From Dehalococcoidia bacterium (GTDB lineage Bacteria > Chloroflexota > Dehalococcoidia > Plut-88900), in contig OZ240215.1 in assembly GCA_965197585.1 (NCBI GenBank), positions 2,112,001 to 2,176,000 on the forward strand: a stretch of 64,000 bases of DNA, in the 5' to 3' direction. A program made the translations under genes and the position numbers. Shown here one piece after another: positions 1,228 through 4,163 of this stretch. The stretch's first letter is position 1; every line of letters begins with the position of its first letter. Below the pieces are notes generated by a model. That model was given only the letters and a program-made list of their open reading frames with translations, was not told the origin of the DNA and searched no databases.

Positions 1228-1535
1228 CATCATTCTCGTGCCCCGACACGGCAATCCATCCCCCAGGCACGGGGCCGCTCACCCTGAGCGACGAGTCGAA
1301 GGGTCGAGCGAGGGGTGGCCCACCTTTGCCAATCCGTCGCCTGTGCCACCCCACCCACCCCCTACCCATCCCGATGCCCCGCGAGGGATCTAAAGCGCCC
1401 GCCTGCACAACACAGATGCCTATCCGGCCATCCTTGTCCCCCTTCCACCCCCTTCATTCCCGACTCCGATCGGGAATCCATCCCCATCCCCCCATTCCCA
1501 ACCCCGATCGGGCTGTAAGTGCGCCTCTGGCGTGA
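1228..1535. repeat. Cluster of REP-like palindromic units (TCATTCCC..GGGAATCCA type; CGCTCACCCTGAGC..GTCGAAGGG type; CCCCGCGAGGGATCT)
   Basis: The same units recur at ~1720, 57590, 57781, 61832-61965 and 63035-63247. Confidence 0.75.
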
Positions 1536-1570
1536 ATCCATCCCCCTCCCACTCCCCCCAAGATTGAACT

Positions 1571-1609
1571 AGAGGCCCGCACGGGTGCACAGCACCCGTG
1601 CGGGCCTCT
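1571..1609 (+). terminator. Perfect 18-bp hairpin, probable terminator
   Basis: AGAGGCCCGCACGGGTGC-aca-GCACCCGTGCGGGCCTCT followed by GTTCTTAT. Confidence 0.6.
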
Positions 1610-1791
1610 GTTCTTATCTCCCCCTCTCCCTTGAAGGCCCTAAGGGTCGAAGATGTCGTAGATGCGCCTGGGAGTGCGCCTGTCGCCTGACTTTACTTAT
1701 TCCCGGGGTGTGGGGGTTCCGCTCGCCCTGAGCAGAGTCGAAGGGTCTCAAGAGCGGAACGGGGTGGACTCCCAAGTGTGACACGAACCCC

Positions 1792-1821
1792 TTGACCCTA
1801 CCTGAACATACGTGCTATTAT
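1792..1821 (+). promoter_or_regulatory. sigma70-like promoter with extended -10 in front of the putative ncRNA
   Basis: TTGACC (1792-97), 18-bp spacer, TGc-TATTAT (1813-21). No credible CDS until 2644. Confidence 0.5.
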
Positions 1822-1827
1822 CCCCAC

Positions 1828-2500
1828 CGTTCGAACACCACCCCAACTATCTCAAGGAGGAACCAAAAACCCAGGGAAGCCCACTAGACCCACCCGAGGA
1901 CTCAACGCCTCAGCCCATCCCAACGGCCTTCGCGCAGGCCCGCGGCACAAGTGACCGGCGCCATCTCCTTTTCCCATCGGGTCCCGTGCCCCTTTCCCTG
2001 GTAGTCAGGCGATGGAAGATGCCTGGACGGCGTCATAGCGGAACGGCCATTCCCCGCCGAGACCCCGTCTCGAAGGTCGGTTAGCAGCGAGCTTACGCTT
2101 TATCAAGCTAGGGGTGGCGGACCGGCTATCCCCGTCCGAGACTCCCTCTCGGAGGTTGGCCCGCCTGCGAGCTTACGCCATATCAAGCAAGGGGCCGTTG
2201 GGCCGCTTGGACCCTCGGGTGGCCCACGCAAATAGGATATCTGAGGGGGCCACAGCCCGATCACTGGCCCCCATCATGCCTGCGGGCATTCAGAGGCGGG
2301 GTCACAGCCGGACTATCTCCCCGGAAAGTCCGCGTTTATCATCGAGCATTAGGGGTGGCAGGGCTTCCACGCCTCGGAGCAGCCCAACATCCGCCAGCAA
2401 AACGGGGCAAGGCCGACCAATCAGCGTCTTCCATCGCCGACCACCCAACAAGCCAATCAACACCCGAATCCCAACCGAATAACCCAAATCCGTAGGAGTG
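1828..2500 (+). ncRNA. Putative large structured non-coding RNA of unknown family
   Basis: Long-range complementarities 1890-99/2213-22 (10 bp), 1919-28/2193-2202 (10 bp), 2008-22/2424-38 (15 bp, one GU) and 1875-82/2361-68 (8 bp). Tandem ~78-nt repeat 2038-2115/2117-2195. Local hairpins. Overlapping ORFs do not look like proteins. Boundaries and strand are approximate. Confidence 0.5.
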
Positions 2501-2643
2501 ACCGGCCGGTCGACCTGAGCCGAGCTGCAAGTGCGCCTCTGGAGCATCGAAGGGAGTCTCAAGAGCGGAATGGGACAGGACGTCCCCGATTCAGCCGGCC
2601 AAGCCTGCTATAATCGGCCCATCCCCTCCCCCGGAGGCCCCAC

Positions 2644-3729
2644 ATGAGACCGCCATTTCAGGTCATAGACTCCGACGGCCATATCAATGAACCCGAAGAG
2701 ATCATCGCCACCTACATGCCGCCTCCCTATGACGCCTATCTCCACGCCTGGAAGGCCAATGCGGGCGGCGACGTCTACTCCAACAACACCCTGGTTCCCA
2801 AGCAGCCCGGCATGGACCCCACCATGGGCGGCGCCCTGGGCACGAACGGCCCTTCCGGATTCCCCTTTCCCTCCGACTGGCTTGCAATCATGGACAAGGC
2901 CGGTGTCGAGAAGACCTACCTCTATCCCACCGCCTTCCTTCCCTATTCCATGATGGTCGACCCCGAATACACCGTCGCCGTGACCCGTGCCTACAACTCC
3001 TTCATCCACGACCACTGGCTGCAGGTCAACGACAGGTTCGGCGCGGTCGCCGTCATGCCCCTGCTGGACGCCGAGGAGTCCGCCAAAGAGTTGCGCAGAT
3101 CGGTGACTGAGCTCGGGTTCGCCGGAGCGTTCACTCCCGCAGTCGGGTACGGGCTAATAGGCAGGAAGCAGAACCACCCCTTCTTCGCCGAGGCCCAGGA
3201 CCTCAACACCACCGTCGCCATCCACGGCGGCCACGCCACCGCCGAATACATACCCTACACACGGTTCATCCAGCGTCACGCAGTCGGGTTCCCGGTTTCC
3301 CAAATAATCCAGATGACCAGCCTCGCCCTTGAGGGCATATTCGAGCTGTTCCCCAACCTGCGGGTTGCATTCCTCGAAGCCGGGTGCACCTGGGTCCCCT
3401 ACATGCTCGACCGGCTCGACGAGGAATGGGAGCTGCGAGGCAAGGTGGAGGCCCCCAACTGCAAGCGCGCCCCCAGCGAGTACCTCCGAGGCAGCAACGT
3501 ATTCGTCCACCTTGAACCCAACGAGAAACTACTGCCCCAGACCATCGACATTCTCGGCGGCGACGCCCTGGTCTACGCCTCCGACTGGCCTCACTGGGAC
3601 AATGACTTCCCCAACAGCATCGATCACATCTGGGAGAGAGAAGACATCACTGAAGGTCAGAAGCGGGCCATCCTCAGGGACAACCCGCTCGCCATGTACG
3701 GGATCAGTGACTCGGAAGGAGGCGCTTAA
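2644..3729 (+). CDS. Amidohydrolase_2 family protein
   Basis: IDSDGH, AIHGG, FLEAGCTW and ASDWPHWD motifs; GGAGG RBS; TGcTATAAT upstream. Confidence 0.9.
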   Translation: MRPPFQVIDSDGHINEPEEIIATYMPPPYDAYLHAWKANAGGDVYSNNTLVPKQPGMDPTMGGALGTNGPSGFPFPSDWLAIMDKAGVEKTYLYPTAFLPYSMMVDPEYTVAVTRAYNSFIHDHWLQVNDRFGAVAVMPLLDAEESAKELRRSVTELGFAGAFTPAVGYGLIGRKQNHPFFAEAQDLNTTVAIHGGHATAEYIPYTRFIQRHAVGFPVSQIIQMTSLALEGIFELFPNLRVAFLEAGCTWVPYMLDRLDEEWELRGKVEAPNCKRAPSEYLRGSNVFVHLEPNEKLLPQTIDILGGDALVYASDWPHWDNDFPNSIDHIWEREDITEGQKRAILRDNPLAMYGISDSEGGA

Positions 3730-4163
3730 TGCCCCGATTCCCCTCCCTGGAATGGTTCGAGGAAGTCCGCCAGGTGTTCAACAGCGACGACGCCTTTCAG
3801 ACCGCCGGAGGCGGCTCCTGCGACGCCATCGTCGGGCTCAAGATAGGGAATGAAATCTACGTCATCGTCTTCGAGAGTTTCGAGTGTAGCTCTGTCCGTC
3901 TGGCGGAAGAGGACGATCTCTATGAGGCCGACTTCTACCTCGAAATGAACGGCGACGAGTGGCGGGAAATGATCCTGAACATCTCCGAAAATGGCTCAGC
4001 AGACCTGGACCATTCCCTTAACAGCATCGACCTCAACAAGTCCCCCGACAGCTTGGCCCACTCTCTGAACGAAGACGGCTACCGCATGGACTTCTTCTTC
4101 CGCTACAACCAGACCTTCCAGTACTTCTTCGACGCCTCCTCCCGCGTCGAGACGCAGTTCTAG
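3729..4163 (+). CDS. SCP2/sterol-carrier-like small protein
   Basis: FPSLEWF..V..VFNSD N-terminus typical of SCP2-like proteins; TAATG overlap with the upstream gene. Confidence 0.6.
   Translation: MPRFPSLEWFEEVRQVFNSDDAFQTAGGGSCDAIVGLKIGNEIYVIVFESFECSSVRLAEEDDLYEADFYLEMNGDEWREMILNISENGSADLDHSLNSIDLNKSPDSLAHSLNEDGYRMDFFFRYNQTFQYFFDASSRVETQF

What the first reader, a model, noticed from the sequence alone, without database searches (positions are those of the whole stretch)
1828..2500. Candidate large structured ncRNA with its own promoter, unassignable to a family I know
Seen: a ~0.8 kb gap with no protein-like ORF, preceded by TTGACC-N18-TATTAT with an extended TG. The next gene has its own TGcTATAAT (~2605). 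Long-range complementarities are CCACCCGAGG 1890-99 / CCTCGGGTGG 2213-22, CCCAACGGCC 1919-28 / GGCCGTTGGG 2193-2202 (nested inside it), GGAAGCCC 1875-82 / GGGCTTCC 2361-68, and GGCGATGGAAGATGC 2008-22 / GCGTCTTCCATCGCC 2424-38, extendable to 2000-06/2439-45. The last helix crosses the others, which implies a long-range pseudoknot or an alternative conformation. Local hairpins lie at 2246-71, 2276-89 and 2309-32, with A/C-rich unstructured flanks at ~1835-70 and ~2445-90. Inference: an independently transcribed large RNA in the size class of OLE/ROOL/GOLLD-type RNAs, lacking RNase P, tmRNA, SRP or group II intron signatures.
Basis: partly seen in the sequence, partly recalled or inferred. Interest (0 to 1): 0.85.

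Follow-up and report, generated by a model that had tools for sequence, protein, structure and literature searches.

The report
Promoter-carrying mobile repeat, not lone RNA
The candidate large RNA is one of about 57 copies per genome of a non-coding mobile repeat that carries its own promoter and lands just upstream of gene promoters in one group of Dehalococcoidia bacteria.

Summary
The sequence features are real. No Rfam family matches.

The region is not a stand-alone RNA gene. It is one of 57 copies in this 3.43-Mb genome. All 8 congeneric genomes searched hold it in many copies. It was found in 0 of 145 other Dehalococcoidia genomes searched with a covariance model.

Every copy has four parts:
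- a sigma-70-type promoter;
- a ~170-nt conserved head with an exact AAGGAGG and no start codon;
- a ~50-nt A/C-rich tail.

The proposed pseudoknot is therefore unsupported.

Intact copies have ~27-bp imperfect terminal inverted repeats that resemble those of a resident IS481-like insertion sequence. They have flanking direct repeats and sit 5 nt upstream of a host TTGAC (-35) box. Empty sites exist in sister species. The window copy has lost both ends.

Transcription and any function of the RNA remain unproven.

The parts
1778..1784 (+). GTGACAC, a remnant of the inner motif (TGACA) of the family's left terminal inverted repeat. The outer ~20 nt of the repeat are missing in this copy.
   Evidence: Alignment with intact element ends and the ends of the IS481-like insertion sequence: TGACA is invariant in 5 of 5 rows and 8 of 8 rows.
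1792..1821 (+). The element's own sigma-70-type promoter: -35 TTGACC (1792-1797), 18-nt spacer, TG (1813-1814), -10 TATTAT (1816-1821). The start near 1828 is inferred.
   Evidence: 10 of 12 matches, TG present. TTGA[CT], a 17/18-nt spacer and TAnnnT are present in 57 of 57 copies.
1850..2007 (+). Conserved head domain. It contains an exact AAGGAGG (1854-1860) with no start codon after it.
   Evidence: 57 copies at 67-93% identity to this one. 35 invariant columns in 89 sequences from 9 genomes. AAGGAGG is exact in 57 of 57 copies, and a start codon follows in 0 of 57.
1856..1996 (+). Head helix P1: GGAGG 1856-1860 pairs with CUUUC 1992-1996. It encloses the rest of the head.
   Evidence: RNAalifold on 89 sequences. 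99.6% of cells are paired. 4 of 5 pairs vary on one side only (G-C/G-U), with no change on both sides.
1896..1970 (+). Head helix P2: GAGG 1896-1899 pairs with CCUU 1967-1970.
   Evidence: 100% of cells are paired, but the helix is almost invariant and therefore uninformative.
1925..1940 (+). Head hairpin P3: GGCC 1925-1928 pairs with GGCC 1937-1940, with a variable loop.
   Evidence: All 4 pairs show changes on both sides in 6-7 of 89 sequences (ACCU/AGGU forms that carry a ~60-nt insert). GGUCGC/GCGACC and GGCCC/GGGCC forms are visible in the alignment.
1944..1962 (+). Head helix P4: GGC 1944-1946 pairs with GCC 1960-1962.
   Evidence: 98.5% of cells are paired. The only variation is G-C to G-U, in 5-6 of 89 sequences.
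2008..2022 (+).
   Evidence: Present in 57 of 57 copies, with its partner 317-545 nt downstream. Each of the 10 core pairs forms a standard pair in 111-126 of 126 distinct elements (9 of the 10 in 124-126). The inner pairs covary: A-T/G-C, T-A/C-G and G-C/C-G.
2023..2423 (+). Variable body enclosed by the long-range helix. This copy belongs to a 6-member subfamily in this genome. It holds a 79-nt tandem duplication (2038-2194) and hairpins at 2246-71, 2276-89 and 2309-32.
   Evidence: Clustering gave 7 subfamilies plus 5 singletons. Tandem repeat. Subfamily consensus fold: 111 pairs, 4 with compensatory changes (2139/2149, 2306/2336, 2310/2331, 2312/2329).
2424..2438 (+). 3' strand of the family-wide long-range helix, GCGTCTTCCATCGCC.
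   Evidence: (I7).
2439..2482 (+). A/C-rich tail ending in CCCAACCGAATAA.
   Evidence: A tail was found in 54 of 57 copies. Median length is 50 nt; composition is A 44%, C 38%, G 9%, T 9%.
1719..1766 (.). Flanking short repeat of another family (CCTGAGC...GTCGAAGGG...CTCAAGAGCGGAA). It stands where the outer left end of the element should be. It is not part of the element.
   Evidence: Direct-repeat families D5 and D13. About 37 matches in the genome over 1720-1780.
2506..2576 (.). A second copy of the same short repeat family. It stands where intact copies have the right terminal inverted repeat. It is not part of the element.
   Evidence: The window row lacks the motif GTGTCAC...GAACGAGTACA.
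2606..3729 (+). The downstream gene's own -10 (TGCTATAAT, 2606-2614) and the amidohydrolase gene (2644-3729). The gene is co-oriented with the element.
   Evidence: Sequence read. Pfam Amidohydro_2, E = 3e-34.

Best explanation
Window 1778-2482 is a degraded, probably immobile copy of a genus-specific family of non-autonomous mobile elements. Intact members are about 0.7-0.9 kb long, and the family is related to IS481-type insertion sequences.

How intact members look (shown): they have ~27-bp imperfect terminal inverted repeats of the pattern TGT..GTT..GGTA..TGACA. Short direct repeats flank them. Their right end lies 5 nt upstream of the TTGAC (-35) box of a host promoter, pointing at that gene.

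What every copy carries (shown): a conserved sigma-70-type promoter just inside the left end. The unit behind it would give a 550-755-nt non-coding RNA. That RNA has a conserved head (AAGGAGG with no start codon, four nested helices), an exchangeable structured body closed by a 15-bp covarying helix, and a C-rich, G-poor tail.

Inferred, not shown:
- A resident IS481-like transposase moves the elements in trans.
- The site next to TTGAC is chosen because it resembles the inner TGACA motif of the element's own ends.
- The promoter is active and sends a long structured transcript towards the neighbouring gene.
- The tail serves as a loading site for Rho (the rho gene is present), which would limit read-through.

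On this reading the main effect is local, on the adjacent promoter and gene. A role of the RNA in trans is unproven.
For: Copy number and range:
- 57 copies in this genome (59 BLAST matches; two promoter-only fragments of 39-45 nt were dropped).
- All 57 have both strands of the long-range helix.
- 8 of 8 congeners have many copies. 0 of 3 other genera of the family and 0 of 29 other families matched by BLAST.
- The head covariance model matched 5 of 5 congeners and 0 of 145 other genomes of the class.

Mobility:
- A 776-bp insertion in a sister genome (L021) stands where this genome has 7 nt. A second case is 913 against 107 nt.
- Of 25 distinct complete elements, 10 have identical 6-nt flanks and 18 have at most 1 mismatch.
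- Positions +6 to +10 after the right end read T 21, T 18, G 19, A 17, C 15 of 25.
- The right end was found in 28 of 57 copies; 18 of those 28 have TTGAC (at most 1 mismatch) at +6 to +10.
- The element ends align with those of a 1056-bp insertion sequence present in ~20 copies. TGACA and four other columns are invariant in 8 of 8 rows.
- That insertion sequence's transposase is closest to IS481 (E = 3e-54), and it makes 5-bp direct repeats.

Constraint on the transcription unit:
- A promoter-like site in 57 of 57 copies and exact AAGGAGG in 57 of 57, against an overall head divergence of ~11%.
- Long-range helix covariation.
- Head fold: 98.7% of cells paired, against 56-70% when the partners are slid.

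Orientation: the downstream gene is on the same strand in 44 of 57 copies, by crude ORF calls.

Rho is present.
Against: - The window copy itself has neither end repeat nor flanking direct repeats. Its membership rests on the internal 700 nt.
- Only 16 of 57 copies have the full left end, and 28 of 57 the right end.
- No autonomous copy with the same ends was found in this genome.
- The IS481-like insertion sequence shares only ~17 of 27 end positions (my count). It targets a different site (ATTCC inside a short repeat), so it may not be the mobiliser.
- Transcription is not shown. RNA-library contigs cover the head at about 65 times the depth of the neighbouring gene, which is what 57 collapsed copies of DNA or weak RNA would give.
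- Body folds are equally good on both strands: 52 (+) against 58 (-) compensatory pairs. The pairing could therefore act at DNA level.
- Within body subfamilies the head is no better conserved than the body: mean divergence 10.7% against 9.3%, and the head is less diverged in only 229 of 636 pairs. The contrast between a shared head and unalignable bodies therefore looks like cassette exchange rather than differential selection.
- Several of the 25 elements used for the flank counts are orthologous copies in different genomes and are not independent.
Confidence: 0.7

Rival explanations
1. A family of genuine, trans-acting large structured RNAs. The mobile-element features are only the vehicle. 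The conserved head binds a common partner (protein or ribosome), and the exchangeable bodies give each paralogue its own specificity.
For: - The promoter and AAGGAGG are conserved in 57 of 57 copies, although the ends are lost in about half of them.
- There are 35 invariant head columns across 89 sequences from 9 genomes.
- The long-range helix and hairpin P3 covary.
- Bodies of different types share motifs and fall into two super-types.
- Helices P1 and P4 of the head vary only through G-C/G-U changes, which are tolerated in + strand RNA.
Against: - The family is restricted to one genus.
- There is no strand asymmetry in the body folds.
- Expression is not shown.
- CsrA, one obvious partner for GGA motifs, is absent from this genome.
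- The head is no more conserved than the body within subfamilies.
- No partner was identified.
Confidence: 0.2
2. A purely DNA-level repeat. The promoter-like site and the internal inverted repeats serve transposase or host-factor binding and DNA hairpin formation. No functional RNA is made.
For: - The folds are strand-symmetric.
- TGACA lies next to the -35 box inside the end repeat.
- RNA-library depth is explained by copy number alone.
- According to the passages read from PMC10969869, MITEs commonly carry promoter-like sequences and palindromic interiors.
Against: - The -10 hexamer, which is not part of the end repeat, is kept with 17/18-nt spacing in 57 of 57 copies, including those that have lost both ends.
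- Helices P1 and P4 change only from G-C to G-U. At DNA level, or in the opposite strand, those would be C-A mismatches.
Confidence: 0.12
3. A unique, independently evolving large RNA gene of the OLE/ROOL/GOLLD size class, with a long-range pseudoknot.
For: The single copy has a promoter, no ORF and no Rfam match, and more self-complementarity than chance.
Against: - There are 57 copies per genome.
- Three of the four helices are subfamily-specific and do not covary.
- The family has mobile-element hallmarks.
Confidence: 0.01
4. A family of small protein genes translated from behind the AAGGAGG.
For: AAGGAGG is exact in 57 of 57 copies. ORFs of 90 and 122 codons overlap the window copy.
Against: - No ATG, GTG or TTG lies 3-9 nt after the motif in any of the 57 copies.
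- One-base indels are scattered through the head.
- None of the three local ORFs tested has a Pfam match.
- By my reading of the consensus, the variable positions show no third-codon bias in the open frame.
Confidence: 0.01

Closest known systems
Bacterial MITEs that carry promoters, such as Correia elements of Neisseria and QMITE1/2 of Coxiella (as described in the passages read from PMC10969869)
   Same: - Non-coding and multi-copy.
- Terminal inverted repeats plus direct repeats.
- Sit in intergenic regions upstream of genes.
- Carry sigma-70-like promoters, and their transcripts are predicted to be strongly folded.
- Many truncated copies lack their ends.
   Different: - Size: 0.7-0.9 kb, against 50-500 bp in the review.
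- GC-rich rather than AT-rich.
- The interior (promoter, head, one helix, tail) is kept in copies that have lost their ends.
- The body comes in at least 12 exchangeable types.
- Insertion is at a fixed 5-nt distance from a -35 box.
IS481-family insertion sequences, here a resident 1056-bp element in ~20 copies
   Same: - TGT...ACA-type ends.
- ~27-bp inverted repeats with shared columns, including TGACA.
- Short direct repeats.
- The resident transposase scores best against the IS481 model.
   Different: - The element has no transposase and shares no interior sequence with the insertion sequence. No BLAST matches to the window's intergenic region 1101-2700 or to the 5' module were listed at the positions where insertion-sequence copies were later found (my comparison; one search gave per-bin counts only).
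- End identity is only about 17 of 27.
- The insertion sequence targets ATTCC inside a short repeat, not -35 boxes.
- The NCBIfam score of 184 bits is below the curated cut-off of 224.
Large structured bacterial RNAs: OLE, ROOL, GOLLD, HEARO
   Same: Size class (550-755 nt predicted), non-coding, many hairpins, a long-range closing helix. Like HEARO, it is multi-copy.
   Different: - No match to any of 4227 Rfam models, even at E up to 10 over the region.
- Restricted to one genus.
- Bounded by transposon-type ends.
Modular repeats such as pneumococcal BOX elements, and eukaryotic SINEs (head-body-tail). Recalled from memory, not tested here.
   Same: Modular build: a conserved first module, a variable middle and a conserved last module. 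Like SINEs, an internal promoter travels with the element.
   Different: BOX elements are far smaller and lack a conserved promoter. SINEs move through RNA, whereas this family shows the end repeats and target duplications of DNA transposition.

Membership tests
Any Rfam 15 family (including OLE, ROOL, GOLLD, HEARO, RNase P, tmRNA, SRP, group II intron domains) | A score at or above the family's gathering threshold with its covariance model | tested here: not met
   - 0 matches in the 64-kb window at gathering thresholds.
- At E up to 10 over 1100-2700, only 3 microRNA-model matches, all on the hairpin at 1568-1613 and far below threshold.
- In 5 loci holding other subfamilies, only 2 matches, both below threshold.
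MITE (non-autonomous DNA transposon) | No transposase gene inside | tested here: met
   In all 57 copies the two strands of the long-range helix lie 317-545 nt apart, which leaves no room for a gene. The local ORFs have no Pfam match.
MITE (non-autonomous DNA transposon) | Terminal inverted repeats | tested here: inconclusive
   Present in intact members (alignment). The left end is found in 16 of 57 copies and the right end in 28 of 57. Both are absent from the window copy, apart from the inner GTGACAC.
MITE (non-autonomous DNA transposon) | Target-site duplication, and empty sites in relatives | tested here: met
   10 of 25 complete elements have identical 6-nt flanks and 18 of 25 have at most 1 mismatch. 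Empty sites in this genome face filled sites L021 and L026. This could not be tested for the window copy.
MITE (non-autonomous DNA transposon) | Small size (50-500 bp in the review PMC10969869) | tested here: not met
   Complete elements are 698-884 bp.
MITE (non-autonomous DNA transposon) | A related autonomous element with matching ends in the same or related genomes | tested here: inconclusive
   The ends of the IS481-like insertion sequence share 9 invariant columns with the element ends, but no autonomous element with the same ends was found in this genome. The other 8 genomes were not scanned for one.
Group II intron (ORF-less) | Domain V and D1-D4 signatures | tested here: not met
   No Rfam intron model matched, even at E up to 10.
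Retron non-coding RNA | Inverted repeats closing the RNA, plus an adjacent reverse transcriptase gene | not tested
   A closing helix exists, but neighbours differ from copy to copy. No search for a reverse transcriptase was made.
Invertible promoter or segment (inverton) | The segment between the inverted repeats is found in both orientations | tested here: not met
   Minus-strand BLAST among the 57 bodies found no inverted body, only one 23-nt match.

The most novel reading that the evidence does not exclude
The family is a new kind of mobile RNA gene. On this reading it is a transposon-borne, promoter-driven head-body-tail RNA of about 640 nt, and the transcript is the selected product. It might work as a cofactor that helps the transposase find -35 boxes. 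It might instead be a set of modular regulatory or scaffold RNAs that share one head and differ in exchangeable bodies. Either would explain why the promoter, the head, the closing helix and the tail outlast the transposon ends.
Probability: 0.15. Interest if true: 0.8.

Novelty: new variant of a known kind. Interest (0 to 1): 0.5.

Why it matters
The finding shows that a convincing single-copy candidate for a large RNA can be one member of a lineage-specific mobile family. That changes how such candidates should be scored.

The family is also unusual in its own right:
- It is two to ten times larger than typical bacterial MITEs.
- It keeps an internal promoter, a conserved head, a covarying closing helix and a C-rich tail even where the transposon ends have decayed.
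- Its bodies are swapped like cassettes.
- Intact copies sit at a fixed 5-nt distance from the -35 box of host promoters, including promoters of tRNA genes.

If the promoter is active, 50-80 genes per genome have acquired a second upstream transcription unit and a common upstream sequence. That would amount to large-scale rewiring of promoters in these Dehalococcoidia; the only habitat label seen is 'sponge metagenome', on two of the RNA libraries that hold part of the stretch. If the RNA itself has a function, it would be a new large RNA class.

Tried and rejected
- Rfam at gathering and at permissive thresholds, on the window and on five loci with other body types: nothing.
- Protein-coding reading: rejected.
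My first script for this crashed after 10 copies. In those 10, only the copy from the window's own subfamily had the complements.
- Mutual information over 148 head sequences was dominated by subfamily signal and gave no clear helices. A first RNAalifold run on the 57 heads was weak.
- Invertible-segment idea: no body in reverse orientation.
- Strand test of the body folds: no asymmetry.
- Test for stronger conservation of the head than of the body within subfamilies: negative.
- Search for an autonomous partner through left-end and right-end motifs in this genome: none. It turned up only a lone left end ahead of groES-groEL and a copy interrupted by another insertion sequence.
- CsrA as a partner for the GGA motifs: no gene found in this genome, which is 91.9% complete.
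- RNA libraries: four runs held only as contigs were laid on the window. The head is present in two libraries labelled sponge metatranscriptome and in one other, but at a depth that copy number alone explains. Parts without cover say nothing.
- Scan of JGI metagenome contigs with the head motif: only 5 short contigs of one assembly, not analysed further.
- Literature: two full-text searches were seen as listings only. One search returned 1 paper and one search returned 115 (15 listed). Neither listing showed this family. Passages of the MITE review PMC10969869 were read. I did not search enough to say the family is not in print. Supplements were not consulted.
- I did not use structure prediction, fold search, complex prediction, the large protein searches or the look-up of encoding contigs (announced as closed).
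Full report
**What is at the coordinates.** The window lies at 2,112,001-2,176,000 of a single-contig genome of 3.43 Mb with 59% G+C. Between a vWA-domain gene on the minus strand (to 1143) and an amidohydrolase gene (2644-3729) lies 1.5 kb without a credible gene.

It is the only such site in 1100-2700, where shuffles give 0.4. The four complementarities are at the stated positions.

Self-complementarity in 1828-2500 exceeds chance. There are five perfect 10-mer pairs against 0.38 in 300 dinucleotide shuffles, and 1 of 300 shuffles reaches five. The total folding energy is unremarkable, with z = -1.74 on the + strand and 0.00 on the - strand.

No Rfam family matches the window at gathering thresholds. 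Nothing matches 1828-2500 at E up to 10. Nothing above threshold matches other members of the family either.

**It is a repeat family.** BLAST of the region against its own genome gave 50 matches. The 5' module (1780-2025) gave 59 matches. Two are promoter-only fragments of 39-45 nt, which I dropped, leaving 57 copies at 67-93% identity.

All 57 have GGCGATGGAA and its complement 317-545 nt downstream. All 57 have a promoter-like TTGA[CT], a 17/18-nt spacer and TAnnnT. All 57 have an exact AAGGAGG, and none has a start codon 3-9 nt behind it. A tail was found in 54 of 57 copies. It has a median length of 50 nt and is 44% A, 38% C, 9% G and 9% T. The predicted unit from start to tail end is 552-755 nt, with a median of 641.

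The stretch enclosed by the helix falls into 7 subfamilies plus 5 singletons in this genome. With copies from sister genomes there are 18 clusters. Representatives still share motifs and fall into two super-types, which also differ in the inner pairs of the closing helix.

Most of the rest of the intergenic region (1230-2580) is made of other short repeat families.

**Range.** All 8 other genomes of the genus hold many copies (47-81 first-look candidates each). Three other genera of the family and 29 other families of the class gave no BLAST match.

A covariance model of the head (89 sequences, 171 positions) matched 5 of 5 congeners. It matched 0 of 145 other genomes of the class (1 from another genus of the same family, 144 from other families).

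The 80 rows shown all bore the title 'MAG: Dehalococcoidia bacterium'. The same motif occurs on only 5 contigs of the JGI metagenome collection.

**Mobility.** Flanks of copies in sister genomes map next to each other in this genome. L021 carries 776 bp where this genome has 7 nt. L026 carries 913 bp against 107 nt.

Sixteen of the 57 copies begin with GATCCCGTTCACATAGAGG about 30 nt before the -35 box. Twenty-eight end with GTGTCAC...GAACGAGTACA. The two ends are imperfect inverted repeats of about 27 bp.

Among 25 distinct complete elements (698-884 bp, some of them orthologous copies in different genomes), 10 have identical 6-nt flanks and 18 have at most one mismatch. The five positions that follow, +6 to +10 from the right end, read TTGAC in 15-21 of 25. 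If the element is read as TG...CA, this is a 5-bp duplication immediately upstream of a -35 box.

The L021 empty site shows that the TTGACA belongs to the host promoter. The promoters concerned include those of tRNA genes. By crude ORF calls, the downstream gene is on the same strand in 44 of 57 copies and the upstream gene on the opposite strand in 36 of 57.

**Candidate mobiliser.** The genome has 29 rve-domain transposase genes. About twenty of them belong to a 1056-bp insertion sequence whose copies are mostly 96-100% identical (three at 89-90%). It has TGT...ACA ends and 5-bp duplications of ATTCC inside a short repeat. Its transposase scores best against the IS481 model, with E = 3e-54 and 184 bits, which is below the curated cut-off of 224.

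Its ends align with those of the element without internal gaps. Nine columns are invariant in eight rows, including TGACA. By my count 17 of 27 positions match the element's right end.

No autonomous element with the element's own ends was found in this genome. The insertion sequence also uses a different target. The link is therefore an inference.

**The window copy.** It keeps only the inner GTGACAC of the left end and has no right end. Copies of another short repeat stand in both places (1719-1766 and 2506-2576).

Elements lie upstream of the same amidohydrolase gene in G001 and G003, and G004 shows weaker matches to the promoter and start of the head there. L010 (G002) also shares the upstream repeat modules, so it is probably the same locus. 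In G001 the head matches at only 74% and the body not at all, while sequence from 2401 onwards matches at 87%. That copy has therefore been replaced or converted.

**Structure.** Helix 3 is broken at two positions in 7 of 13 sequences, and helix 2 at one position in 5 of 13. Other subfamilies lack the complementary words (which covered 10 copies before the script stopped).

Helix 4 is family-wide. Each of its ten core pairs is a standard pair in 111-126 of 126 distinct elements, nine of the ten in 124-126.

The head folds into four nested helices on an 89-sequence alignment. Here 98.7% of cells are paired, against 56-70% when the partners are slid by 1-3 columns. Changes on both sides occur only in hairpin P3. 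P1 (which includes the GGAGG) and P4 vary only between G-C and G-U.

Within the window's subfamily the body has 111 predicted pairs, 4 of them with compensatory changes. Over ten subfamilies, however, the plus and minus strands fold equally well, with 52 against 58 compensatory pairs.

Within subfamilies the head is as diverged as the body: 10.7% against 9.3%, and the head is less diverged in 229 of 636 pairs. The picture is a mosaic of invariant and saturated head positions joined to bodies that are exchanged rather than slowly diverging.

**Expression.** The only runs on record as RNA that hold part of the stretch are kept as contigs. Two libraries labelled sponge metatranscriptome and one other library contain head sequence. 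One contig (1899-2023) has a single difference from the window. The summed depth at the most conserved part (about 178) is some 65 times that of the neighbouring gene (2.7), which is what the copy number predicts. This shows presence in RNA libraries, not transcription.

**Reading.** The best-supported account is a genus-specific family of large non-autonomous transposons, related to IS481, that carry a conserved transcription unit. The window copy is an old member that has lost its ends.

Shown:
- copy number and range;
- end repeats, target duplications and empty sites;
- position relative to -35 boxes;
- conservation of the promoter, the AAGGAGG, one long-range helix and the tail.

Inferred:
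- mobilisation in trans by a resident transposase;
- target choice through likeness between TTGAC and the TGACA of the ends (insertion sequences such as IS30 and IS911 are recalled to prefer sequences like their own ends; not checked here);
- activity of the promoter;
- a role of the C-rich, G-poor tail in Rho loading (the rho gene is present);
- a stabilising role of the 5'-proximal AAGGAGG, like the STAB-SD of Bacillus thuringiensis cryIIIA mRNA (recalled, not checked).

A trans-acting RNA function remains possible, because the internal unit outlasts the ends.

**Comparison with what is known.** According to the passages read from PMC10969869, bacterial MITEs are 50-500 bp and usually AT-rich, with terminal inverted repeats and direct repeats. 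Some carry sigma-70-like promoters or give rise to small RNAs.

This family shares the logic, but differs in four ways:
- its size;
- its G+C content;
- its conserved head-body-tail interior;
- its fixed distance to -35 boxes.

I therefore file it as a new variant of a known kind, not as a member of any Rfam RNA family.

Noticed in passing
G000:C1:1679032-1680087 (L135) and about 20 further copies; none lies in the window: A 1056-bp IS481-like insertion sequence in about 20 copies, most of them 96-100% identical to the reference copy and three at 89-90%. It has TGT...ACA ends and a 320-aa transposase. Nearly always it sits in the same short repeat (GTCATTCC|GAGG) with a 5-bp ATTCC duplication, in either orientation. 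It therefore appears to target a short repeat.
   Followed up: partly
G000:C1:3404965-3405010, upstream of groES-groEL: A lone left end of the element (TGATCCCGTTCACATAGAGGGGTGACATCACCCCCTTG) is fused to the -35 region of the chaperonin operon promoter. A CIRCE-like inverted repeat (TTAGCACTC-N9-GAGTGCTAA) follows it.
   Followed up: no
G000:C1:659308-661379: One family copy is interrupted by a different insertion sequence with a 438-aa rve-domain transposase. It sits between the left end and the -35 box of the element's own promoter.
   Followed up: partly
window 1531-1646, including the hairpin at 1570-1610: A ~115-nt repeat module with about 30 matches in the genome. It contains a perfect 18-bp terminator-like hairpin followed by a T-rich run, and often lies 50-120 nt upstream of family copies.
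   Followed up: no
window 1260-1400, 1719-1766 and 2506-2576: Short repeat families (CCTGAGC...GTCGAAGGG type and others) with about 37-50 matches in the genome. Together with the element they make up nearly the whole 1.5-kb intergenic region.
   Followed up: no
for example L030, L031, L077, L123 (head) and many copies after the tail: Small hairpin modules of 25-45 nt (GGAACATCCGCCTC.GGAGGA and the like) are inserted, singly or in tandem, at two fixed places in the element: between CAAGC and GAACG in the head, and just after the tail. They behave like nested miniature insertions.
   Followed up: no
window 2038-2194; L124 (G007:C1:780850-782250): The 79-nt unit in the body is present twice in the window copy and three times in a copy from a sister species, so the number of units varies.
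   Followed up: no
L113 (G001) compared with window 1548-4160: At the orthologous site upstream of the amidohydrolase gene, G001 has an element with a different body and a head only 74% identical, while sequence from 2401 onwards is 87% identical. This points to replacement or gene conversion between copies.
   Followed up: partly
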